A stretch of DNA of 64,000 nucleotides. It comes from a virus. Shown one piece after another: positions 6,582 to 20,344 of this stretch; positions within the stretch are counted from its first letter, which is position 1, and every line of letters begins with the position of its first letter. The position numbers and the translations under genes are program-made. The stretch is taken from IMG/VR virus record IMGVR_UViG_3300047388_000429, positions 6,426 to 70,425 of that record, one strand, 5' to 3'. A model generated the notes under the pieces. It worked only from the letters and a program-made list of their open reading frames with translations, did not search any database and was not told the origin of the DNA.

Positions 6582-6760
6582 TCGACGTCGACAACTGGCA
6601 TTGGCCCCAATGGGGATGGGTGATCGGGGATTTTACAGTCCTTGTACTCTACGCCTTTGTCCACGGCAGAAAAATCAAGGAAAGATATAATTTCTTTGGG
6701 CGACTCGCGACCGTTGGAATGAATATTTATATTCTTGTACAGGGAGGATTTTTTAAATGA
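6578..6760 (+). CDS. Small membrane protein
   Basis: ATGA overlaps at both ends. Confidence 0.55.
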   Translation: MIDVDNWHWPQWGWVIGDFTVLVLYAFVHGRKIKERYNFFGRLATVGMNIYILVQGGFFK

Positions 6761-7968
6761 AGTATATCCATGAAGGCACGAAACACCCGATAAAGGCTTG
6801 GGTCGATCACGTTCCGATCGAGGACGTGGCATTGCAGCAGCTTAAGAACATCGCTGATCTCCCCTTCATTTACAAACACGTCGCGGTGATGCCGGACGTC
6901 CACTGGGGCATGGGAGCCACGGTCGGGAGCGTTATCGCCACGAAGGGCGCGATCTGTCCAGCCGCCGTCGGGGTGGATATCGGTTGCGGGATGATGGCCG
7001 TTAAGACGACGCTCACGGCTTCGCAGTTGCCGGAGAACCTGCAGGCGATCCGAAGCGAGATCGAGAAGGCGGTCCCGCACGGGAGGACCAACAACGGGGG
7101 AACCGGTGATCGCGGGGCCTGGCATGATATTCCGGATGAAGCAGCTGAAATCTGGGCGAATCAATTCGCTGATCGCTATGACCAGATCGTTGAAGGCCAC
7201 CAGAAGGCCCGCGCATATAATTCAGTCAATCATCTGGGTACCCTCGGAAGCGGCAATCACTTCATAGAATTATGCTTGGATACCGAACAGAACGTGTGGA
7301 TCATGCTTCACAGCGGCAGCCGCGGGCTCGGGAACAAGATCGGCATGTATTTCATCGAGCGCGCGCAGAATGAATGTGAGAAGTATTTTATCAACCTGCC
7401 GGATAAGGATCTGGCTTATCTTGTCGACGACACTCCGCTGTTCAGAGACTATGTTCTGGCCGTCGAAATGGCGCAGGAATTCGCGTATGCCAATCGTGGC
7501 CTGATGATGAAGAACGTGCTGGCGGCGATCCGCAAGCACATTCCGAACCTCAGGGTCACCGATATGGCGGTCAACTGTCACCACAACTATATTGCAAGGG
7601 AGGCCCATTTTGGACAAAACGTCATCGTCACCAGAAAGGGAGCTGTACGAGCGCGTGCGACAGACCTTGGAATCATTCCAGGCTCCATGGGGGCTAAGTC
7701 CTTCATCGTCCGCGGAAAGGGAAATGTTGATTCGTTCTGTTCATGCAGCCATGGTGCCGGTCGCGTGATGTCCCGCGGGCAGGCAAAGAAGCTGATTAGC
7801 ATGGAGGACCATATTCGCGATACCGCTGGCGTCGAATGTCGGAAGGACGCTGATGTCATCGACGAGAGCCCGAAGGCTTATAAGGATATTGAAAAAGTAA
7901 TGCTTTCGCAGGCTGATTTGGTTGAAATAGTATATGAACTCAAGCAGATCCTTTGCATTAAGGGGTAA
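6757..7968 (+). CDS. rtcB: RtcB RNA ligase
   Basis: MPDVH, VGVDIGCG, GTLGSGNHFIE, HSGSRG, HHNY, RKGA, PGSMG, SHGAGR motifs. Confidence 0.96.
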   Translation: MKYIHEGTKHPIKAWVDHVPIEDVALQQLKNIADLPFIYKHVAVMPDVHWGMGATVGSVIATKGAICPAAVGVDIGCGMMAVKTTLTASQLPENLQAIRSEIEKAVPHGRTNNGGTGDRGAWHDIPDEAAEIWANQFADRYDQIVEGHQKARAYNSVNHLGTLGSGNHFIELCLDTEQNVWIMLHSGSRGLGNKIGMYFIERAQNECEKYFINLPDKDLAYLVDDTPLFRDYVLAVEMAQEFAYANRGLMMKNVLAAIRKHIPNLRVTDMAVNCHHNYIAREAHFGQNVIVTRKGAVRARATDLGIIPGSMGAKSFIVRGKGNVDSFCSCSHGAGRVMSRGQAKKLISMEDHIRDTAGVECRKDADVIDESPKAYKDIEKVMLSQADLVEIVYELKQILCIKG

Positions 7969-14769: not shown

Positions 14770-15018
14770 TCAGGCGCCCGTTACCTCTGTGGCAACTTCT
14801 GTCGCAGTTGTCTCCACCGTTTTTTCAACAGTTTCTGCGCCGGCCGCGACCGTAGTTTCGACGGCCGTTACTTCGATTTCTTTCTTTTCGACCGCAGCCT
14901 TTTCGTGCGCCAACAGCGCATCGATCTTGGCGTGAGCCTCAGCAAGGACAGCCTCGATTTCAGCCTTGAGATGTTCGCCTGCGGTTTCGACTTTTGTTAT
15001 CAGGTCTTGTAGGCTCAT
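14770..15018 (-). CDS. Hypothetical acidic protein
   Basis: AAGGA RBS; hairpin downstream. Confidence 0.6.
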   Translation of the reverse strand: MSLQDLITKVETAGEHLKAEIEAVLAEAHAKIDALLAHEKAAVEKKEIEVTAVETTVAAGAETVEKTVETTATEVATEVTGA

Positions 15019-15075
15019 GATCTATTTTCCTTTTTAAGATTTAAGACTTTGGTTTGTAGATTCGCGAGCTCCATC

Positions 15076-15477
15076 CTACGCTGCTGCGGAGGCAGACGCT
15101 GTATCTGTGCCATTGCCGTTTTGATCTCCCGCTGGACTGGCTACCACCGGAGGCGCTGATACCGCTACCTGAATAGCGGAAAGAACTCCGTTCGTTACCG
15201 CCTGTGCGATTACATTGGCGTCCTGATCAGTGATATCGATATTCAGAGACAGCGCCTGCGCCTTGATAAGCACGGCCGCCGATTGAATGGCCGCCTGCGG
15301 CTGTTGTCCGCCAGCGATGGTCGCGAGCGCCAACGTCGTCGGCTCAGTGAGATCAAGGGCGGAAAATTTGGTGACCAGGCCATTGAGCATCTCAATGTTG
15401 GCCTGCAGCAACGTATAAAGAGACGGGGCCGGTGCCTTGAAGAGCGGGATGACTTTATCGACTAAAGCAGTGGACAT
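15076..15477 (-). CDS. Hypothetical protein
   Basis: AAGGAAG RBS, 133 aa. Confidence 0.6.
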   Translation of the reverse strand: MSTALVDKVIPLFKAPAPSLYTLLQANIEMLNGLVTKFSALDLTEPTTLALATIAGGQQPQAAIQSAAVLIKAQALSLNIDITDQDANVIAQAVTNGVLSAIQVAVSAPPVVASPAGDQNGNGTDTASASAAA

Positions 15478-15559
15478 ATTACTTCCTTTCAGATTTTGAA
15501 TCCGCGGGGATGCGGTAAAAGAATCATGGCAGATATTTTTTTATTGCACAATCGAAAAG

Positions 15560-15633
15560 TGGTTCTGGGGGCACGGATCGAACGTGCATTACCTGATTCA
15601 AAGTCAGGGGGCCTACCATTAGCCGACCCCAGA
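15560..15633 (-). tRNA. tRNA-Gln(UUG)
   Basis: CCTGA-CT TTG AA-TCAGG arm, TTCGA T-loop, CCA. Confidence 0.92.
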
Positions 15634-15638
15634 AAAAG

Positions 15639-15711
15639 TGGGTTGTGCGCGGGATTTGAACCCGATACGCCGAGTCACAATCGGCTGCTTTGCCGTTAAG
15701 CTACGCACAAA
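15639..15711 (-). tRNA. tRNA-His(GUG), 4-bp T-stem
   Basis: GCCGA-TT GTG AC-TCGGC; C73-CCA. Confidence 0.85.
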
Positions 15712-15713
15712 CT

Positions 15714-15787
15714 TGGCAGAGGGCCTGTGAATCGAACACAGATTAGCCGTTTTGGAGGCGGCGAGCTTGCCATTAGCAGAGCCCTCT
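15714..15787 (-). tRNA. tRNA-Trp(CCA)
   Basis: GCCGC-CT CCA AA-ACGGC; G73-CCA. Confidence 0.88.
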
Positions 15788-15801
15788 AAATTGGTCGGCG
15801 A

Positions 15802-16209
15802 TCACTTGCCGTGTTTTAAATATTTCTCCCGTCGTACTCTCTGTTGTTTTTCCTTAGTCCATGTACTCCACTCATCTCTACGCCTTCCCGAGCGGGCAGC
15901 GTCCCTTTCTCCCTTAGACGCATAGAGTTGATTAGGCTTCGAAGCCGCAGAACAGTTGCAACTCAAATGCGAGAACGCGATGTTTTCTAGGTCAAAGAAA
16001 GATGCCAAAGGATCAGCCGCTCCCATCCATGCCTCCTTGTGCTCGATGGACATATCCGACGAAGATATGATCTCATTTTGACACCTGAAACACTTGTTAA
16101 GGCCAGCTTTACACACTAGTGAGAAAAGAACATTCTTTCTCAGTTTATGTGTGGCAGTACCTATGGGCATCCCGAGTAAGGACGCTTTCTTGTCGTTATG
16201 TTTGCTCAT
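15802..16209 (-). CDS. HNH-like endonuclease inserted at the 3' end of tRNA-Pro
   Basis: CFRC...SIEH...NIAFSHLSCN; GGAGG RBS. Confidence 0.75.
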   Translation of the reverse strand: MSKHNDKKASLLGMPIGTATHKLRKNVLFSLVCKAGLNKCFRCQNEIISSSDMSIEHKEAWMGAADPLASFFDLENIAFSHLSCNCSAASKPNQLYASKGERDAARSGRRRDEWSTWTKEKQQRVRREKYLKHGK

Positions 16210-16243
16210 CGTTTACCTCCGTATTTAATGTTGCAAACGAATG

Positions 16244-16319
16244 TCGGTACGGCAGGATTTGAACCTGCGATCCTCTGGTCCCAAGCCAGATGGGGACGGC
16301 CAGACTCCCCTACGTACCG
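16244..16319 (-). tRNA. tRNA-Pro(UGG), no encoded CCA
   Basis: TCTGG-CT TGG GA-CCAGA; C1:G72, A73. Confidence 0.9.
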
Positions 16320-16326
16320 TTTATTT

Positions 16327-16403
16327 TGGTGGGCCGCCTCGGACTTGAACCGAGAGAAAGCTTGTTCCTAAGACAAGTGCGTCTGCCATTCCGCCAGCAG
16401 CCC
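16327..16403 (-). tRNA. tRNA-Leu(UAG), short variable region
   Basis: CTTGT-CT TAG GA-ACAAG; Leu-type D arm; A73-CCA. Confidence 0.88.
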
Positions 16404-16404
16404 A

Positions 16405-16487
16405 TGGTGCGAGTAATCAGAATCGAACTGATACGCCGAAGCGAGCGATTTTAAGTCGCTTGCGTCTACCTATTCCGCCATACTCGC
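16405..16487 (-). tRNA. tRNA-Leu(UAA)
   Basis: AGCGA-CT TAA AA-TCGCT; variable arm; CCA. Confidence 0.92.
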
Positions 16488-16512
16488 TTATAAAATTCTC
16501 CTTTCGCGCAAT

Positions 16513-16544
16513 AAAAAAACCCCGCCTTGTTTAGGGGCGGGGTT
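16513..16544 (-). terminator. Attenuator terminator 3 (upstream of the Leu-Leu-Pro-Trp-His-Gln block)
   Basis: AACCCCGCC-CCTAAACAA-GGCGGGG followed by TTTTTTT. Confidence 0.88.
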
Positions 16545-16570
16545 CAGAGCTTTCGCACTCTTACCGTATA

Positions 16571-16642
16571 TTACCGCCCAAGCATAAAGGCTCCCAGTGG
16601 GAGTTGCTGTAAATGCCAGGGCTGTAACAAATTCTTTTTCAT
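16571..16642 (-). CDS. Leader peptide 3, MKKNLLQPWHLQQLPLGAFMLGR
   Basis: Codons 5-16 are only L/Q/P/W/H, matching the downstream tRNAs; stop 26 nt before the terminator. Confidence 0.85.
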   Translation of the reverse strand: MKKNLLQPWHLQQLPLGAFMLGR

Positions 16643-16648
16643 TGTTTT

Positions 16649-16677
16649 ACAATATGATGATTCTTTGAGAATTGCAA
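16649..16677 (-). promoter_or_regulatory. Sigma70-like promoter giving a leaderless leader-3 transcript
   Basis: TTGCAA-17 nt-TATTGT-6 nt-ATG. Confidence 0.7.
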
Positions 16678-16683
16678 GAGAAA

Positions 16684-16759
16684 TGGTCCGTCCAGAGAGA
16701 CTCGAACTCCCAGCCTGAAACTTAGAAGGTTCCTGCTCTTCCAATTGAGCTATGGACGG
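16684..16759 (-). tRNA. tRNA-Arg(UCU)
   Basis: GGAAC-CT TCT AA-GTTTC; CCA. Confidence 0.92.
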
Positions 16760-16760
16760 A

Positions 16761-16849
16761 TGGTGCATGGGGATGGATTTGAACCACCGATGTTAACCCA
16801 AAGGGACCTGATCTACAGTCAGGCGCATTCGCCGCTCTGCCACCCATGC
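16761..16849 (-). tRNA. tRNA-Tyr(GUA)
   Basis: CCTGA-CT GTA GA-TCAGG; long variable arm; CCA. Confidence 0.92.
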
Positions 16850-16858
16850 GTTATCTTT

Positions 16859-16947
16859 TGGCGGATGCTGAAGGGGTCGAACCTTCGTGAGCCAGCGAGG
16901 CTCCGCAGTTTAGCAAACTGCTCGTTTTACCATTCACGCAAGCATCC
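16859..16947 (-). tRNA. tRNA-Ser(GCU)
   Basis: GCAGT-TT GCT AA-ACTGC; long variable arm; G73. Confidence 0.92.
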
Positions 16948-16955
16948 AGAAAAAT

Positions 16956-17043
16956 TGGCGGAGGGTAAAGGAGTCGAACCATCAGCGCATTCAAGGCTGG
17001 CGACAGTTTTCAAGACTGTTTGTCCCCGCGGACGCTACCCTCC
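16956..17043 (-). tRNA. tRNA-Ser(UGA), probable 8/4 fold
   Basis: ACAGT-CT TGA AA-ACTGT; acceptor GGAGGGTA/TACCCTCC (8 bp). Confidence 0.85.
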
Positions 17044-17117
17044 GGACTCACGAACCGGACTCGAACCGGCATAAGCGATTTTGCAGACCGCTGCATAACC
17101 TTTCTGACCACCGCGAG
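17044..17117 (-). tRNA. tRNA-Cys(GCA)
   Basis: GCGGT-CT GCA AA-ATCGC; U73; ends in CC and abuts G1 of tRNA-Ser. Confidence 0.85.
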
Positions 17118-17123
17118 AGAAAT

Positions 17124-17205
17124 TGGCACGCCCGACAGGAGTTGAACCTGCATCTTCCATCCGATTACCTTTGTCGGCGTTCGTAGCACCGAGGGTTACG
17201 GGCGT
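17124..17205 (-). tRNA. Rearranged tRNA-Arg(ACG) lacking a conventional D arm
   Basis: Acceptor ACGCCCG/CGGGCGT-G-CCA and canonical T arm; anticodon arm CGGTG-CT ACG AA-CGCCG comes right after the acceptor 5' strand. Confidence 0.7.
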
Positions 17206-17206
17206 A

Positions 17207-17282
17207 TGGTACGACGAACCGGAGTCGAACCGGCACCCTGCGGGTCCGGAACCCACCGCTCTTCCAGTTGAGCTTCCGTCGT
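17207..17282 (-). tRNA. tRNA-Arg(CCG)
   Basis: GTGGG-TT CCG GA-CCCGC; CCA. Confidence 0.9.
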
Positions 17283-17286
17283 AAAT

Positions 17287-17361
17287 TGGCGATCCTTGGG
17301 GGTGCTGCCCCCCCGACCTCCGCCGTGACAAGGCGGCGCTCTGCCGTTGAGCTAAAGGACC
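17287..17361 (-). tRNA. tRNA-Asp(GUC) with atypical T-loop
   Basis: CCGCC-TT GTC AC-GGCGG; T-loop GGCAGCA; G73. Confidence 0.85.
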
Positions 17362-17367
17362 ATGAAT

Positions 17368-17454
17368 TGGTGCCAGCCACAGGATTCGAACCTGCGATGA
17401 TCTTGCGATGACGGTTTACAAAACCGTTGCCTTCAACCACTCGGCAAAGCTGGC
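17368..17454 (-). tRNA. tRNA-Thr(UGU) with long variable arm
   Basis: ACGGT-TT TGT AA-ACCGT; G1:C72, C2:G71. Confidence 0.82.
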
Positions 17455-17789
17455 AATTTTATTATTCCAGCGTGAACTTTACGATGACAATTAGAGCAAA
17501 GAACAACGCACTTCTTTAATTCTTTTTCAACTTTTTTAAGAGAATGATTTGTAAAATTACTGATATTTATATTCATATCTTTTTTCTTTGGATCTAGATG
17601 ATGGAAGTCCAAACAATAAGGTTCTTTCTCTCCGCAAACCTTACATTTAAGTTTTTTCTTCATCTCTCTAAATTCTAACCGTCGTCTTTTTCTCCACGCA
17701 TTATTCAATTCCATGCGACGTTTTTTATTACGTGGATACCAGATTTCCCGATGGTATTTGGCGATTTCGCCTTTTGTTTTGTAACTCAT
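17433..17789 (-). CDS. HNH endonuclease within the tRNA array
   Basis: CKVCG...LDFHH...CVVLCSNCHRKVH; stop lies inside the tRNA-Thr D-loop. Confidence 0.8.
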   Translation of the reverse strand: MSYKTKGEIAKYHREIWYPRNKKRRMELNNAWRKRRRLEFREMKKKLKCKVCGEKEPYCLDFHHLDPKKKDMNINISNFTNHSLKKVEKELKKCVVLCSNCHRKVHAGIIKLPALPSG

Positions 17790-17818
17790 AAAAACACTAT
17801 ATAGCATGTTACAAAAAT

Positions 17819-17897
17819 TGGTAGCAGAGATCGGATTCGAACCGATGATAACAGCGTTATGAGCACCGTGCTTTGGGCCAGACTAAGCTACTCTGCG
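17819..17897 (-). tRNA. tRNA-Met(CAU), elongator-like (Ile2 not excluded)
   Basis: CGGTG-CT CAT AA-CGCTG; G2:C71, C3:G70; C11:G24; C1xU72 mismatch. Confidence 0.82.
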
Positions 17898-17903
17898 TCA
17901 ATT

Positions 17904-17978
17904 TGGTGCGCTGGCAGGGAGTTGAACCCTGTCCTCAAGCTTGGAAGGCTCGCATGCACCCACCAACAACTCCAGCGC
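17904..17978 (-). tRNA. tRNA-Gly(UCC)
   Basis: CGAGC-CT TCC AA-GCTTG; weak D stem; A73. Confidence 0.82.
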
Positions 17979-17985
17979 ATTATCT

Positions 17986-18060
17986 TGGCGGGGAACTGTG
18001 GAATTGAACCACATACGCGCGGACCTTCAAACCGCCGCTCTACCGATGAGCTAGATCCCC
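17986..18060 (-). tRNA. tRNA-Phe(GAA)
   Basis: GCGGT-TT GAA GG-TCCGC (U31xU39); G73. Confidence 0.82.
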
Positions 18061-18126
18061 AAAGTTAAACACGCGGCCGTGTGAGTTTCGGCTCTTACAC
18101 CATCGTGGCAGACGGGTTGCGTGAAT

Positions 18127-18202
18127 TGGCTCCCGAGAGTGGACTCGAACCACTGACAACTTGATTAACAGTCAAGGACTCTACCAACTGAGCTACTCGG
18201 AA
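18127..18202 (-). tRNA. tRNA-Asn(GUU)
   Basis: CTTGA-CT GTT AA-TCAAG; G73-CCA. Confidence 0.93.
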
Positions 18203-18213
18203 TAATTTTTATT

Positions 18214-18299
18214 TGGCCGGCGGGGCAGGACTTGAACCTGCGACCTCTTCATCCAGTGCGCATGGCATGAAGCGCTCTAACCAACTGAGCTACCCGCCG
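18214..18299 (-). tRNA. tRNA-like RNA with elongated anticodon arm, identity undetermined
   Basis: Canonical acceptor, D and T arms and CCA, but 16 nt (TGCCATGCGCACTGGA) replace the 7-nt anticodon loop. Confidence 0.75.
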
Positions 18300-18331
18300 A
18301 AAAATCATCATATCAACAATGTTCAATAACC

Positions 18332-18366
18332 AAAACAAAAACCCCGCTTCTTTTAGGAGCGGGGCT
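18332..18366 (-). terminator. Attenuator terminator 2 (upstream of the 14-gene tRNA block)
   Basis: AGCCCCGCTCCT-AAA-AGAAGCGGGG followed by TTTTTGTTTT. Confidence 0.85.
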
Positions 18367-18393
18367 TTGTGTTTTTAACAGGGAGAAAAAGAT

Positions 18394-18468
18394 TTACACA
18401 AATAGCCCCTCGCCGCTTCTTCCGAAGCCGCGGTCATAGGACATATTTGATGTGCATATCGTTTTCAT
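18394..18468 (-). CDS. Leader peptide 2, MKTICTSNMSYDRGFGRSGEGLFV
   Basis: Codons 5-19 use only C/T/S/N/M/Y/D/R/G/F, which are all ten amino acids of the downstream block. Confidence 0.85.
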   Translation of the reverse strand: MKTICTSNMSYDRGFGRSGEGLFV

Positions 18469-18474
18469 TCTTTC

Positions 18475-18503
18475 AGTATCTATCAGATTCGCTAAAAAGT
18501 CAA
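18475..18503 (-). promoter_or_regulatory. Sigma70-like promoter giving a leaderless leader-2 transcript
   Basis: TTGACT-17 nt-GATACT-6 nt-ATG. Confidence 0.7.
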
Positions 18504-18504
18504 A

Positions 18505-18578
18505 TGGTACTCGGTGAAGGAATCGAACCATCGTCAACTGCATGTAAGGCAGCCACTCTCCCATTGAGCTAACCGAGC
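18505..18578 (-). tRNA. tRNA-Val(UAC)
   Basis: GCTGC-CT TAC AT-GCAGT; CCA. Confidence 0.9.
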
Positions 18579-18628
18579 ACATCCGGCGCAGCGATTGTTT
18601 GGGCCATGACAGTCGCTGCGCCGAAACT

Positions 18629-18705
18629 TGGTGGACCCTGCGAGAATCGAACTCGCCTCAGTCTGCTTGCAAAGCAGTCTCGCCCCCCTTGGTACATGAG
18701 AGCCC
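18629..18705 (-). tRNA. tRNA-Ala(UGC)
   Basis: CTGC-TT TGC AA-GCAG; G3:U70; atypical D arm. Confidence 0.85.
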
Positions 18706-18712
18706 ACATATT

Positions 18713-18787
18713 TGGTCGGTGCGATGGGAATTGAACCCATTTTATACGCCTTAAAAGGGCGCTGCCTGACCGGCCGGCTCCGCACCG
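18713..18787 (-). tRNA. tRNA-Lys(UUU)
   Basis: GCGCC-CT TTT AA-GGCGT; CCA. Confidence 0.88.
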
Positions 18788-18791
18788 TAAT

Positions 18792-18866
18792 TGGTTGAGG
18801 CGAAGGGAATCGAACCCCACGTCTAACGGTTATCAACCGCTTGCACTGCCATTGTGCTACACCTCA
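18792..18866 (-). tRNA. tRNA-Ile(GAU)
   Basis: AGCGG-TT GAT AA-CCGTT; CCA. Confidence 0.9.
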
Positions 18867-18890
18867 GAAATCTGTTTCCTCCCGCATAAT

Positions 18891-18916
18891 AAAAAACCCG
18901 CCTTTGTGGGGCGGGT
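18891..18916 (-). terminator. Attenuator terminator 1 (upstream of the Ile-Lys-Ala-Val block)
   Basis: ACCCGCC-CCACAAA-GGCGGG followed by TTTTTT. Confidence 0.85.
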
Positions 18917-18944
18917 GCAAAATTCAAGACGAATTTGACCAGCC

Positions 18945-18998
18945 CTATTTGTCGGGTTTAATCGCTTTCGCCACAATCTTTACAGTCTCTCGTCTCAT
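18945..18998 (-). CDS. Leader peptide 1, MRRETVKIVAKAIKPDK
   Basis: GAGGA RBS; codons 6-14 are only V/K/I/A, matching the downstream tRNAs; too short to appear in the ORF track. Confidence 0.85.
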   Translation of the reverse strand: MRRETVKIVAKAIKPDK

Positions 18999-19016
18999 CT
19001 CGTTCTTCCTCTACTT

Positions 19017-19090
19017 TGGCGCGGCCAACGGGAATTGAACCCGTGTTGTCCGATTGAAAGTCGGCTTTCCTGCCGTTAGAAGATGGCCGC
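19017..19090 (-). tRNA. tRNA-Glu(UUC)
   Basis: CCGA-CT TTC AA-TCGG; G73-CCA. Confidence 0.9.
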
Positions 19091-19187
19091 TTAAAGTAGG
19101 CTAAGCCATCTGTATTTTTCAGGGGTTTGCTACGCTGGCCCCCTGCGGCCTCTGTACGTCCCAAACCGTTAAGTGAGGGACCAAAAT

Positions 19188-19262
19188 TGGTTGCGAAGCT
19201 TGGAATTGAACCAAGTACCTGCTGCTTATGAGGCAGCCGAGCTACCGATGCTCTACTCCGCG
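19188..19262 (-). tRNA. Initiator-like tRNA-fMet(CAU)
   Basis: C1xA72, A11:U24, CAT anticodon; anticodon stem GCTGC/GCAGC. Confidence 0.85.
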
Positions 19263-19268
19263 ATTTTC

Positions 19269-19297
19269 ACTTTATAGGAGTTGTAATTTTATTTCAA
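19269..19297 (-). promoter_or_regulatory. Sigma70-like promoter at the head of the tRNA array
   Basis: TTGAAA-17 nt-TAAAGT, 6 nt before tRNA-fMet. Confidence 0.7.
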
Positions 19298-19306
19298 GAG
19301 AAAAGT

Positions 19307-19729
19307 TTAGGCGAGCACGCGCGCGGCCGCGGCCTCGAAAACCGCCTCTTCATACCAGAACGGCAACGCCGAATCGGGACACGTCCCTTGTTCATGAAGG
19401 ACAATCGCTTGTGTCAAGCGAATCAGGTTGTCGGGGACTTCGATATCAAAATAATCCGTTTGATCGACGCCGCAATGACGGCAAACATCAAGGACACAGA
19501 CAGCGGCCTTGTCCGGCGAGGAATAACGAGCAATAAAAGCCGCGATGTGCTCGAGGTCATCTTTTCGCTGAAAAGATAAAAGAGTTTTCATGAGCGCGGC
19601 GATTCCGCTGACGGGGCTATCAAAACGAATTAACCTTGGATCATCTTGCAGCGTGCTTTGGGCTACGCATGCTCTCCCATTGTGCTCGAGCTTGCCAGGA
19701 TTGTTGAGAATGATAGACCACGGTGTCAT
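19307..19729 (-). CDS. Putative lysozyme-like virion/lysis protein
   Basis: NNPG motif, F.SP..GI.A, AI..HEQG. Confidence 0.55.
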   Translation of the reverse strand: MTPWSIILNNPGKLEHNGRACVAQSTLQDDPRLIRFDSPVSGIAALMKTLLSFQRKDDLEHIAAFIARYSSPDKAAVCVLDVCRHCGVDQTDYFDIEVPDNLIRLTQAIVLHEQGTCPDSALPFWYEEAVFEAAAARVLA

Positions 19730-19974
19730 CTATGGCCTCCCTCGAGCCATGCCAGGACCAGCGTCCATGCCGTTGAAAAGACTCCCATGACGCCGGTTCC
19801 TATCCACATGATTTTTTGATGGCGCTCGACCTTTGGTTTTATTTCTTTGATGGCCGCCTGAGCGACGGCGAGATCAGACGTTAACTTTGGAATAGTAGAT
19901 GTATTTTTTTCAATGTTGCTTACGCTGCTCTGCAGCTGGCCTAGGACTCTAAATATTTCATCATTGCTCGACAT
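19726..19974 (-). CDS. Holin-like or other membrane protein
   Basis: Coiled coil plus C-terminal TM segment. Confidence 0.5.
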   Translation of the reverse strand: MSSNDEIFRVLGQLQSSVSNIEKNTSTIPKLTSDLAVAQAAIKEIKPKVERHQKIMWIGTGVMGVFSTAWTLVLAWLEGGHR

Positions 19975-19975
19975 G

Positions 19976-20344
19976 TCACGGCACCGTCAGTTGTTTCCTA
20001 AAAACTATTTGACCAGGTGAAAGAAGCATATCTGCATTTGAAACCGTATAAACATTTCCGATCGGTGAAGTTATTGTCGGCTCCCATTTATAGGTTCCGG
20101 TGACCAGATCAACGGTTTGCGTTCTCAGGATTTTAAATTGAAATGCTCCCCTGTTCGTCGTCTGATTGGGGATGGTAACGGTATGATCACCAGTCGTGTA
20201 TGTCGCAATAATTGAACCGTCTAAATTAAAAAGCTCGACCTTGATCGTGTAACCCGTCAAATCGATTAAAGAATTATCGCTTCTGTTCCTGACCAAGGAC
20301 TGAATGGGGATGTCATTATTGGTGATCGCTGAAAAGTTCAACAT
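19976..20344 (-). CDS. Ig-like virion accessory protein
   Basis: IDLTGYT...GTYKWE pattern; tail region. Confidence 0.5.
   Translation of the reverse strand: MLNFSAITNNDIPIQSLVRNRSDNSLIDLTGYTIKVELFNLDGSIIATYTTGDHTVTIPNQTTNRGAFQFKILRTQTVDLVTGTYKWEPTITSPIGNVYTVSNADMLLSPGQIVFRKQLTVP

What the first reader, a model, noticed from the sequence alone, without database searches (positions are those of the whole stretch)
15560..19297. Phage tRNA array split into three leader-peptide attenuator modules that sense the tRNAs they supply
Seen in sequence: the minus-strand array reads promoter - fMet - Glu - [leader 1 + terminator] - Ile, Lys, Ala, Val - [promoter + leader 2 + terminator] - 14 genes (Asn, Phe, Gly, Met, Thr, Asp, Arg x3, Cys, Ser x2, Tyr, one unassigned) - [promoter + leader 3 + terminator] - Leu x2, Pro, Trp, His, Gln. 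Each terminator lies upstream of a tRNA block, 26-28 nt after the stop of a short ORF. The central codon run of each ORF contains every amino acid of its own block and none from the other blocks: VKIVAKAIK; CTSNMSYDRGFGRSG; LLQPWHLQQLPL. The three sets are non-overlapping and cover 19 amino acids; Glu and fMet sit before the first terminator. In each module, sequence around the leader stop is complementary to the 5' arm of the terminator. Established: this is the layout of ribosome-mediated transcription attenuation (trp, his, thr, ilv, pheST). Inference: stalling at any listed codon, caused by host anticodon nucleases, tRNA-modifying toxins or starvation, would switch on the block carrying the replacement tRNA. 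I know of no description of leader-peptide attenuation controlling tRNA genes, but I could not search the literature.
Basis: partly seen in the sequence, partly recalled or inferred. Interest (0 to 1): 0.97.

Follow-up and report, generated by a model that had tools for sequence, protein, structure and literature searches.

The report
Leader-peptide attenuators gating phage tRNA blocks
A soil phage splits its tRNA genes into blocks, each placed behind a tiny test gene spelled in exactly the amino acids that block serves plus a transcription stop signal, so it probably makes a tRNA set only when ribosomes run short of it.

Summary
Observation confirmed. In a complete 70-kb soil myovirus, the minus-strand array of 26 tRNA genes is cut by exactly three intrinsic terminators. 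Each lies 25-28 nt behind a 17-24-codon ORF and 29-38 nt ahead of the next tRNA. The ORF cores (9, 15 and 12 codons) use only, and all of, the amino acids of the block behind them. No reshuffling of amino acids among blocks equals this (0 of 200,000).

One relative keeps all three modules. 14 of 15 changed core positions stay in the set (P about 1e-6), and stems carry compensatory changes. Masked-ribosome folding predicts the expected switch in 6 of 6 modules.

Best reading: trp/ilv-type ribosome-mediated attenuation applied to tRNA genes, giving a three-channel decoding homeostat.

Limits: there are no expression data. Promoter calls for leaders 2 and 3 are weak. Antiterminator complementarity beats shuffles only in module 2. 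Two possible bypass promoters sit in block 2.

Ten literature searches found no description. This scan noted the same kind on other phages before. I re-checked phiCbK and found one clear unit. T5 and four other arrays lack the layout.

The parts
19269..19297 (-). Promoter P1 (TTGAAA-17-TAAAGT). Its -10 hexamer ends 6 nt before the 5' end of the initiator-type tRNA.
   Evidence: 9 of 12. The same geometry occurs in relative L003 (6508-6536, 6 nt before its tRNA-Met).
19017..19262 (-). Unregulated block 0: tRNA-Met(CAT, initiator type) at 19188-19262 and tRNA-Glu(TTC) at 19017-19090.
   Evidence: The same two genes precede leader 1 in L003 and L005.
18945..19011 (-). Leader 1: Shine-Dalgarno GAGGAAG at 19005-19011 and ORF at 18945-18998 (MRRETVKIVAKAIKPDK). 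The core VKIVAKAIK lies at 18957-18983.
   Evidence: unique run of 9. All 9 core codons are read by block-1 anticodons under strict wobble. A 27-nt core is identical in three phages.
18890..18916 (-). Terminator 1 (7-bp GC-rich stem, U tract), 29 nt before tRNA-Ile.
18505..18866 (-). Block 1: tRNA-Ile(GAT), Lys(TTT), Ala(TGC), Val(TAC).
18475..18503 (-). Promoter P2 (TTGACT-17-GATACT). Its -10 hexamer ends 6 nt before the ATG of leader 2, which implies a leaderless mRNA.
   Evidence: 9 of 12. The L003 counterpart is below the scan's threshold.
18394..18468 (-). Leader 2 ORF (MKTICTSNMSYDRGFGRSGEGLFV). The core CTSNMSYDRGFGRSG lies at 18412-18456. The 5' strand of the antiterminator lies at 18396-18409.
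   Evidence: the only run with all 10 residues. L003 has the same 10 residues in another order.
18330..18372 (-). Terminator 2 (stem 18338-18368, U tract). The 3' strand of the 12-bp antiterminator helix lies at 18361-18372.
   Evidence: Duplex of -20.0 kcal/mol, equalled by 2 of 3000 shuffles. Compensatory changes in L003.
18300..18329 (-). Conserved spacer element (17-mer at 18313-18329, then TATGAT 7 nt before the first gene of block 2). Its role is unknown; it may be an extended -10 promoter.
   Evidence: unique in the window; present in L003.
16684..18299 (-). Block 2, 14 genes: one with a lengthened anticodon arm, Asn, Phe, Gly, Met, Thr, Asp, Arg(CCG), a non-canonical Arg(ACG)-like gene, Cys, Ser(TGA), Ser(GCT), Tyr, Arg(TCT). 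An HNH endonuclease gene at 17433-17807 is inserted.
16649..16677 (-). Putative promoter P3 (TTGCAA-17-TATTGT, 8 of 12). Its -10 hexamer ends 6 nt before the ATG of leader 3.
   Evidence: Read; not flagged. The same geometry is seen in L003.
16571..16642 (-). Leader 3 ORF (MKKNLLQPWHLQQLPLGAFMLGR). The core LLQPWHLQQLPL lies at 16595-16630. A hairpin pairs the core with the ORF end.
   Evidence: z -4.0; unique run of 12.
16510..16545 (-). Terminator 3 (stem 16517-16545, U tract), 29 nt before tRNA-Leu.
   Evidence: An A-U to C-G double change at 16543/16519 occurs in a metagenomic variant.
15560..16487 (-). Block 3: tRNA-Leu(TAA), Leu(TAG), Pro(TGG), an inserted HNH gene at 15802-16209, then Trp(CCA), His(GTG), Gln(TTG).

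Best explanation
Three ribosome-mediated transcription attenuators each gate one block of phage tRNA genes.

How it would work (inferred steps marked):
- RNA polymerase starts at P1 (then passes fMet and Glu into leader 1), or at P2 or P3 (directly at the AUG of leaders 2 and 3).
- A ribosome translates the leader while the terminator is being made.
- If all core codons are decoded quickly, the ribosome reaches the stop codon. There it covers the strand that would otherwise pair with the terminator's 5' arm. The terminator forms and the block is not transcribed.
- If any core codon is slow because its charged tRNA is scarce, the ribosome stalls upstream. The strand near the stop codon is free and sequesters the 5' arm, and polymerase reads into the block that encodes exactly the missing tRNAs.
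- The new tRNAs relieve the stall, so each block is under negative feedback.
- The initiator tRNA, which every leader needs, sits outside the control.

Shown here: the layout, the codon-to-block match, conservation, and the alternative pairings in silico. Inferred: translation of the leaders, regulated read-through, and the physiological trigger. The trigger could be any loss of decoding capacity, such as host tRNA cleavage or decay, or phage codon demand.
For: 1. Codon-to-block match
- 41 of 61 leader residues are own-block, equalled in 0 of 200,000 amino-acid-to-block shuffles.
- The core runs are unique in six-frame scans of the window.
- Core codons read by own-block anticodons under strict wobble: 9 of 9, 11 of 15 and 10 of 12.

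2. Layout
- The array holds exactly 3 terminators outside tRNA genes, 25-28 nt after the leader stops.
- They are 3 of only 8 strong terminators in 64 kb.
- Only 29, 38 and 29 nt separate each stem from the next tRNA.

3. Conservation
- All three modules are present in L003, whose flanking protein is 60% identical. Module 1 is present in the partial contig L005.
- 14 of 15 changed core positions stay in the set, exact P = 1.3e-6.
- Leader 2 keeps all 10 residues in a new order.
- Metagenomic variants change V to K and V to A in leader 1 (both in set) and make one synonymous change in leader 3.

4. RNA structure
- There are compensatory changes in terminator 2 and terminator 3.
- In module 2, a matched one-base insertion on each strand keeps the antiterminator helix in register.

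5. Switch test
- The terminator 5' arm is sequestered by 0.40-0.59 more with the ribosome on the core than on the stop, in 6 of 6 modules. Shuffled leaders equal this in 0-3 of 60 trials each.

6. Context and an independent lineage
- The phage encodes RtcB.
- phiCbK gp083 lies before a terminator and a Pro/Lys/Leu/Ala/Ser block. 31 of its 44 residues are in that set, the top of 4,537 windows in the locus.
Against: - There is no RNA or ribosome data of any kind for this phage, and the host is unknown.
- Duplex complementarity between the stop region and the terminator 5' arm is not above shuffles in modules 1 and 3 (323, 886, 162 and 1101 of 2000; 687, 1824, 152 and 1255 of 3000).
- Promoter calls are weak. 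Promoter-like sites are no more frequent than in shuffles (6 against 4.0 +/- 2.1; 5 against 5.6 +/- 1.9). P3 and both L003 counterparts fall below threshold. The leaderless start of leaders 2 and 3 therefore rests on geometry alone.
- Two possible bypass promoters exist in block 2. One is TTGTCA-18-AATAAT at 17490-17461, 6 nt before tRNA-Thr. The other is the conserved TATGAT element 6-7 nt before the block's first gene.
- 20 of 61 leader residues belong to other blocks, so early stalls could cross-talk.
- Under strict wobble TCC, CGC, GGC (twice), CCC and CTC are not read by block tRNAs. No CGG codon is present although tRNA-Arg(CCG) is.
- In L003 and L005 the first core residue of leader 1 is Asn, which is out of set.
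- In L003 modules 1 and 3 the no-ribosome state is predicted to be as antiterminated as the stalled state.
- A 6.8-kb contig in run X3 seems to place tRNA-His directly behind tRNA-Val. I could not read it, and it may be an exception.
Confidence: 0.72

Rival explanations
1. The leaders are translated and sense decoding, but the output is not intrinsic-terminator read-through. Ribosome position could instead control Rho access, RNase processing, or the stability of the precursor. Alternatively the terminators could merely insulate blocks while the leader peptides do something else.
For: Antiterminator complementarity is not significant in modules 1 and 3. Possible bypass promoters exist in block 2. 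No terminator follows blocks 1 and 2, so insulation of the units is needed anyway.
Against: The switch test is positive in 6 of 6 modules. The terminators are canonical, with U tracts, and lie 29-38 nt before the tRNAs. Stem changes are compensatory.
Confidence: 0.12
2. Direct RNA-tRNA sensing without translation. The codon run would act as a string of specifier codons that bind the anticodons of uncharged or charged tRNAs, in the manner of a T-box, and so shift the terminator/antiterminator balance.
For: The run is a list of codons cognate to the downstream anticodons. Leaders 2 and 3 lack a Shine-Dalgarno sequence.
Against: No T-box or other riboswitch match appears at E up to 1 in the region. 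In all relatives the runs are in frame between an ATG and a stop. Leader 1 has a Shine-Dalgarno sequence in 3 of 3 phages. The runs lie inside hairpin stems, not in specifier-type loops. The residue order is scrambled while the set is kept, which fits decoding and not a fixed RNA fold.
Confidence: 0.05
3. Ordinary constitutive terminators, with chance or non-functional small ORFs. The array would simply be three transcription units with leaky stops that set tRNA dosage.
For: There are no expression data. Five of seven unrelated phage arrays examined have no such units, so arrays work without them.
Against: The match of ORF content to block content has permutation and six-frame support. It survives 15 substitutions between relatives.
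Confidence: 0.04

Closest known systems
Multivalent leader-peptide attenuators of enterobacterial amino-acid operons (ilvGMEDA: Ile/Val/Leu; thr: Thr/Ile; also trp, his, leu, pheA). Recalled textbook knowledge, not retrieved here.
   Same: A short translated leader with a run of regulatory codons. An intrinsic terminator with a competing upstream pairing whose availability depends on where the ribosome sits. More than one amino acid sensed by one leader.
   Different: The regulated genes are tRNAs, not enzymes. A leader samples up to 10 amino acids, each once or twice, rather than repeating one to three. Three such units partition 19 amino acids in one array. Two leaders appear to be leaderless mRNAs. 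The system lies in a virus. There is no sequence membership: the Rfam Thr_leader model scores 22-24 bits against a cut-off of 55.
pheST (pheM leader) attenuator of E. coli and T-box riboswitches of Firmicutes (recalled).
   Same: Both sense tRNA charging or decoding capacity to control a component of the translation apparatus through a terminator/antiterminator choice.
   Different: Both control aminoacyl-tRNA synthetase or related genes, one amino acid per element. T-boxes bind tRNA directly and need no ribosome, and no T-box match was found here.
Long tRNA array (trn operon) of Anabaena sp. PCC 7120, silent until translation is impaired (PMC8421152, passages read; PMC10272220, term search only).
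   Same: An accessory tRNA array is expressed on demand under translational stress, and rtcB belongs to the same response. The phage here also carries RtcB.
   Different: Control there acts at the promoter, through direct repeats and the repressor TrcR. Both texts hold 0 occurrences of 'attenuat' and 'leader'. The array is a single unit with no codon-matched sensor.
Leaderless polycysteine short ORFs acting as cysteine-responsive attenuators in mycobacteria (bioRxiv 10.1101/834739; search listing and abstract start only).
   Same: A leaderless short ORF whose codon content senses the supply of an amino acid and controls downstream genes.
   Different: One amino acid, metabolic target genes, a bacterial chromosome.
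Earlier notes of this scan on other phages (phiCbK-like Caulobacter phages, giant phages, a marine Bacteroidota phage).
   Same: The same idea: a mini-ORF spelled in the amino acids of the tRNA block behind its terminator.
   Different: They concern different, unrelated phages. Here three units in one array partition the amino acids without overlap. I re-checked only phiCbK, which has one clear unit and one weak one.

Membership tests
Leader-peptide (ribosome-mediated) transcription attenuator | A short ORF with a plausible translation start lies upstream of the regulated genes. | tested here: met
   All three ORFs start with ATG and have 17-24 codons. Leader 1 has a GAGGAAG Shine-Dalgarno sequence 6 nt upstream, in 3 of 3 phages. 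In leaders 2 and 3 the ATG lies 6 nt after a -10-like hexamer. This is weak promoter evidence.
Leader-peptide (ribosome-mediated) transcription attenuator | The leader's regulatory codons correspond to the product of the regulated genes. | tested here: met
   The correspondence is kept in L003 through 14 of 15 substitutions.
Leader-peptide (ribosome-mediated) transcription attenuator | An intrinsic terminator lies between the leader and the regulated genes, with no promoter in between. | tested here: inconclusive
   Terminators are present in all three modules. The 29-nt spacers before blocks 1 and 3 leave no room for a sigma-70 promoter. Block 2 has a conserved TATGAT element and an internal promoter-like site before tRNA-Thr.
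Leader-peptide (ribosome-mediated) transcription attenuator | An antiterminator pairing excludes the terminator and is controlled by ribosome position. | tested here: inconclusive
   The positional switch is positive in 6 of 6 modules against shuffles. Duplex strength is above shuffles only in module 2 (2 of 3000 and 21 of 3000). Modules 1 and 3 are not.
Leader-peptide (ribosome-mediated) transcription attenuator | The leader is translated, and read-through rises when cognate charged tRNA is limiting. | not testable with these tools
   No RNA run holds the stretch, and there is no isolate of the phage.
T-box riboswitch | Stem I with a specifier loop, and the conserved T-box sequence in an antiterminator bulge that pairs with the tRNA 3' end. 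| tested here: not met
   The Rfam scan of 15000-20000 at E up to 1 lists no T-box match.
Known Rfam amino-acid operon leaders (Thr_leader and others) | A score at or above the family's gathering threshold. | tested here: not met
   Thr_leader scores 23.9 and 22.0 bits against a cut-off of 55, with E of 0.28 and 0.83. No other leader family is listed.

The most novel reading that the evidence does not exclude
The phage carries a three-channel decoding-capacity homeostat that works as an inducible counter-defence.
- Each tRNA block is switched on independently, within one round of leader translation, whenever any one of its amino acids' codons becomes slow. Host anticodon nucleases or tRNA decay during infection could cause this.
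- RtcB repairs cut tRNAs in parallel.
- The 5'-terminal AUGs of leaders 2 and 3 make only transcripts started at P2 or P3 translatable. Transcripts running on from an upstream block are therefore terminated, and the channels stay insulated.
- The constitutive initiator tRNA feeds the sensors.
- Together with the other phage lineages noted by this scan, this would make codon-matched leader attenuation a widespread, undescribed way for viruses to regulate tRNA genes.
Probability: 0.45. Interest if true: 0.93.

Novelty: new variant of a known kind. Interest (0 to 1): 0.88.

Why it matters
Why phages carry tRNA genes, and how those genes are expressed, is an open question. Current answers are codon-usage compensation, host tRNA decay, and escape from tRNA-cutting defences. 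A sensor written in the codons of the tRNAs it controls would show that at least some phages measure decoding capacity codon by codon and supply tRNAs on demand.

It would also extend a textbook mechanism, leader-peptide attenuation, from amino-acid supply to tRNA supply. It offers a natural 'OR gate' reading up to ten amino acids in one leader. The non-overlapping partition into three channels makes a sharp, testable prediction: starvation or tRNA depletion should induce only the matching block. The modules are small (about 150 nt) and could serve as compact reporters of codon-specific translation stress.

Tried and rejected
Search for relatives
- The two flanking proteins, singly and as alignments, found only one IMG/VR relative.
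- They found nothing real in metagenome or genome contigs.
- A degenerate leader-1 pattern found that relative again (as L004) and the partial contig L005 in IMG/VR. Its 11 metagenome hits have no tRNA array beside them and are chance.
- A 19-nt spacer motif gave 7 chance hits in genome contigs, none with tRNAs.
- A tRNA-Gly pattern found only the known relative.
- A portal alignment found a 4-kb fragment and a 26%-identical provirus, neither with tRNAs.
- A protein search listed three further close homologues of the downstream flanking protein (P0002, P0003, P0005).
- Because the blocks of the window and of L003 hold the same amino-acid sets, co-variation of leader content with block content could not be tested inside this lineage. 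Only retention of the set could be tested.

Expression
- No RNA holder is listed for the stretch.
- The three DNA holders are soil metagenomes, and one may be the source of this DNA. Parts of the stretch without cover in X2 and X3 say nothing.

Structure statistics
- Simple duplex tests of the stop region against the terminator 5' arm were not significant for modules 1 and 3.
- Whole-module folds of module 1 are not more stable than shuffles (z -1.06 and -1.19).

Survey of other arrays
- T5, Pseudomonas phage Amme-3, Arthrobacter phage Atuin, Streptomyces phage Liandry and Xanthomonas phage XaC1 have no terminator directly before a tRNA block by my criteria.
- Vibrio phage D480 has one, before all 25 tRNAs, which is uninformative.
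- The automated version of the survey depends on ARAGORN calls. It understates the window's own module 2 and L003's module 1 because it misses Asp and Ala.

Literature
- Ten searches gave no paper describing leader-peptide attenuation of tRNA genes.

Rejected readings: a functional small peptide, a T-box, and a chance ORF (see the rival explanations).

Correction: one search's simulation used a wrong threshold (15 or more of 16). One search gives the corrected figure (14 or more of 15, P = 1.3e-6).

Full report
WHAT THE DNA IS. The window is bases 6426-70425 of a 70,425-bp IMG/VR virus record with direct terminal repeats, rated complete. It encodes a tail sheath, a portal and a large terminase. 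Its portal is only 42-46% identical to those of 60-73-kb myoviruses of Pantoea, Burkholderia, Xanthomonas, Escherichia and Pseudomonas. Near-identical DNA occurs in soil metagenomes. The host is unknown.

THE OBSERVATION. ARAGORN finds 23 tRNA genes, all on the minus strand, between 15560 and 19262. Rfam adds Asp(GTC) at 17290-17361 and a Ser(TGA)-type gene at 16960-17043. A further gene-like element at about 17118-17206 has an acceptor stem, a T arm and an ACG anticodon arm but no normal D arm, and neither program calls it. That makes 26 genes covering all 20 amino acids.

My hairpin-plus-U-tract scan finds exactly three terminators in the array outside tRNA genes, at 18916-18896, 18368-18338 and 16545-16517. 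Each starts 28, 25 or 25 nt after the stop of a short ATG-ORF. They are three of only eight such strong terminators in the 64-kb window.

The ORFs read MRRETVKIVAKAIKPDK, MKTICTSNMSYDRGFGRSGEGLFV and MKKNLLQPWHLQQLPLGAFMLGR. The blocks behind the terminators are:
- Ile, Lys, Ala, Val;
- the 14 genes serving Asn, Phe, Gly, Met, Thr, Asp, Arg, Cys, Ser, Tyr;
- Leu (two genes), Pro, Trp, His, Gln.

IS IT MORE THAN CHANCE? Of 61 leader residues (start Met excluded), 41 belong to the block behind them. The off-diagonal counts are 1-6. Shuffling the 20 amino acids among blocks of the same sizes reached neither 41 nor the summed core length of 36 in any of 200,000 trials.

In all six frames of the window (123,473 residues), the 9-residue run in {I,K,A,V} and the 12-residue run in {L,P,W,H,Q} are unique, with next-longest runs of 7 and 8. 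Runs as long as 15 in the 10-residue set do occur (maximum 18). None of them holds more than 7 distinct residues, whereas the leader holds all 10.

At codon level, strict wobble lets own-block anticodons read 9 of 9, 11 of 15 and 10 of 12 core codons. With four-way reading by U34 this becomes 9, 14 and 12. CGC would need the ACG anticodon of the non-canonical gene. In each leader, every amino acid of the set appears within the first 5, 11 or 6 core codons, and the later core codons are repeats.

RELATIVES. One IMG/VR contig (L003, 67 kb; flanking protein 60% identical, portal 76%) has the same array on three modules. Its leaders are MLRETNKIVAKAIKPIK, MKTISTSMYSSDRTFNRGCGAGHLV and MKTNLLQLWHQPLPQLGVFVLGRM.
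- Between the two phages, 15 core positions differ and 14 remain in the block's set. The set frequencies in the phage proteome are 0.28, 0.49 and 0.19, so the exact probability is 1.3e-6.
- Leader 2 keeps all ten residues in a different order. This is what selection on content, not on a peptide, would give.
- A partial contig (L005) carries fMet-like, Glu, leader 1 (MRRETNKIVAKAIKPDR), terminator, Ile, Lys, and then a homing-endonuclease-like ORF at the contig end.
- A 27-nt stretch of leader 1 is identical in all three phages, synonymous sites included.

Contigs of a soil run (X3) add variants.
- A contig about 4% diverged has a single synonymous change in leader 3. It also has a double change at 16543 and 16519 that turns an A-U pair of terminator 3 into C-G.
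- Two low-depth contigs change Val to Lys and Val to Ala inside the core of leader 1, both within the set.
- A 6.8-kb contig of the same run seems to join tRNA-His directly to tRNA-Val. I could not read it. It may be a relative with another block order and is an open test.

RNA STRUCTURE. Modules 2 and 3 fold far better than shuffles (z -5.9 and -4.0 in the window; -3.8 and -4.4 in L003). Module 1 does not (z about -1.1).

In module 3 the core codons pair with the end of the ORF, and that end (GGGCGG at the last two sense codons) can pair with CCGCCC of the terminator's 5' arm.

In module 2 a 12-bp helix joins the ORF end (18396-18409) to the terminator's 5' flank and arm (18361-18372).
- Its energy of -20.0 kcal/mol is equalled by 2 of 3000 shuffles. 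The L003 counterpart (-17.0) is equalled by 21 of 3000.
- The two phages differ there by a one-base insertion on each strand that keeps the helix in register.
- For modules 1 and 3 the same duplex test is not significant.

A test aimed at the mechanism worked better. I folded each RNA as it exists before the terminator's 3' arm is made, with a 28-nt ribosome footprint masked. I then compared how much the 5' arm is paired upstream when the A site is on the core codons and when it is on the stop codon. The difference is 0.40-0.59 in all six modules. Shuffling the leader and spacer gives a mean of about 0 and equals the real value in 1, 1, 0, 0, 0 and 3 of 60 trials. The partner of the terminator's 5' arm therefore lies where a terminating ribosome would cover it and a stalled one would not.

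A weakness: in L003 modules 1 and 3 the no-ribosome state is predicted to look like the stalled state.

PROMOTERS AND STARTS. P1 (19297-19269) ends 6 nt before the initiator-type tRNA. P2 (18503-18475) ends 6 nt before the ATG of leader 2. A weaker hexamer pair (8 of 12) has the same geometry before leader 3.

L003 repeats the geometry, but only its P1 passes the scan. Promoter-like sites are no more frequent than in shuffles in either phage. Leaders 2 and 3 have no Shine-Dalgarno sequence and may be leaderless mRNAs. Leader 1 has no promoter of its own but has GAGGAAG 6 nt upstream of its ATG in 3 of 3 phages.

If the leaderless reading is right, only transcripts started at P2 or P3 would be translated. 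Run-on from the previous block would be terminated, which would insulate the channels (inference).

Two features could bypass attenuator 2. One is a 10-of-12 promoter-like site with TG at 17490-17461, 6 nt before tRNA-Thr and inside the inserted HNH gene. The other is a conserved, window-unique element ending in TATGAT, 6-7 nt before the first gene of block 2.

MECHANISM. The best-supported reading is classical ribosome-mediated attenuation with tRNA genes as the output, run three times in parallel, with fMet and Glu outside the control. Since more tRNA cannot cure a lack of amino acid, the design fits sensing of tRNA supply better than sensing of amino-acid supply (inference). The phage's RtcB ligase (PF01139, E 1.8e-129) fits a setting in which tRNAs are cut. 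The trigger is not shown.

COMPARISON WITH WHAT IS KNOWN. It works like the multivalent ilv and thr leaders and like the pheST leader (recalled). It is not a member of any Rfam leader family or of the T-box family.

The nearest published case of on-demand tRNA-array expression that I could find is the Anabaena trn operon. It is controlled at the promoter by repeats and TrcR, with rtcB in the same response. Both papers hold no occurrence of 'attenuat' or 'leader'. A preprint on leaderless polycysteine ORF attenuators in mycobacteria is a partial parallel (listing only). Ten full-text searches found no account of leader-peptide attenuation of tRNA genes.

GENERALITY. Notes of this scan report the same kind of unit on other phages. 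They are leads, not support. I checked one, and then surveyed other arrays.
- In phiCbK (JX100813), annotated terminators precede tRNA blocks.
- The 45-codon gp083 before the Pro/Lys/Leu/Ala/Ser block has 31 of 44 residues in that set, the top of 4,537 six-frame windows of the locus.
- A second phiCbK unit is weak: 10 of 15 residues, matched by 34 of 9,021 windows.
- Of seven unrelated arrays examined, five (T5, Amme-3, Atuin, Liandry, XaC1) have no terminator directly before a tRNA block, and one (Vibrio D480) is uninformative.

The layout is thus a minority design, apparently arisen more than once.

VERDICT. It is a new variant of a known kind of control, not found in print, and of high interest. 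The main gaps are the absence of any expression data, the weak promoter evidence, and the lack of relatives with different block contents.

Noticed in passing
window 6757-7968 (+): An intact RtcB RNA ligase (PF01139, E 1.8e-129) lies in the plus-strand gene cluster. It fits repair of cut tRNAs, and in Anabaena rtcB is co-regulated with a tRNA array (PMC8421152).
   Followed up: partly
window 18214-18299 (-): The first gene of block 2 has a normal tRNA body (Rfam 58.4 bits), but its anticodon arm is lengthened to about 9 pairs with a 7-nt loop lacking U33. ARAGORN gives no identity. The gene is absent from relative L003.
   Followed up: partly
window about 17118-17206 (-): A tRNA-like gene with an acceptor stem, a T arm and an ACG (Arg) anticodon arm but no normal D arm. 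Neither ARAGORN nor Rfam calls it. L003 has a canonical Arg(ACG) instead.
   Followed up: partly
window 19188-19262 (-): The initiator-type tRNA has a C1-A72 mismatch, but the three pairs next to its anticodon loop are not the usual G-C pairs (read).
   Followed up: no
window 17433-17807 and 15802-16209 (-); L003 7941-8362: HNH homing-endonuclease genes are inserted inside blocks 2 and 3, and at a different place in L003. L005 has an endonuclease-like ORF after tRNA-Lys.
   Followed up: partly
window 18868-18882 and 16492-16503 (-): Shine-Dalgarno-like purine tracts (GGAGGAAAC and AAGGAGAA) lie between terminators 1 and 3 and the first tRNA. They are conserved in L003 and no ORF follows them. 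Their role is unknown.
   Followed up: no
window 18300-18329 (-): A conserved 17-mer plus TATGAT lies between terminator 2 and block 2. It is unique in the window. It may be an extended -10 promoter or a processing signal.
   Followed up: partly
window 19091-19187 (-): A 97-nt spacer separates the initiator tRNA from tRNA-Glu, with no call by ARAGORN or Rfam. It was not examined.
   Followed up: no
L003 8946-9256 (+): The relative has an extra small gene with its own strong terminator inserted between block 2 and the promoter of leader 3. This shows that the modules are separable units.
   Followed up: no
run X3, contig record 17: A 6.8-kb soil contig aligns to Glu and the start of leader 1, and then to tRNA-Val joined directly to tRNA-His. 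It may be a relative with another block order. It could not be fetched.
   Followed up: no
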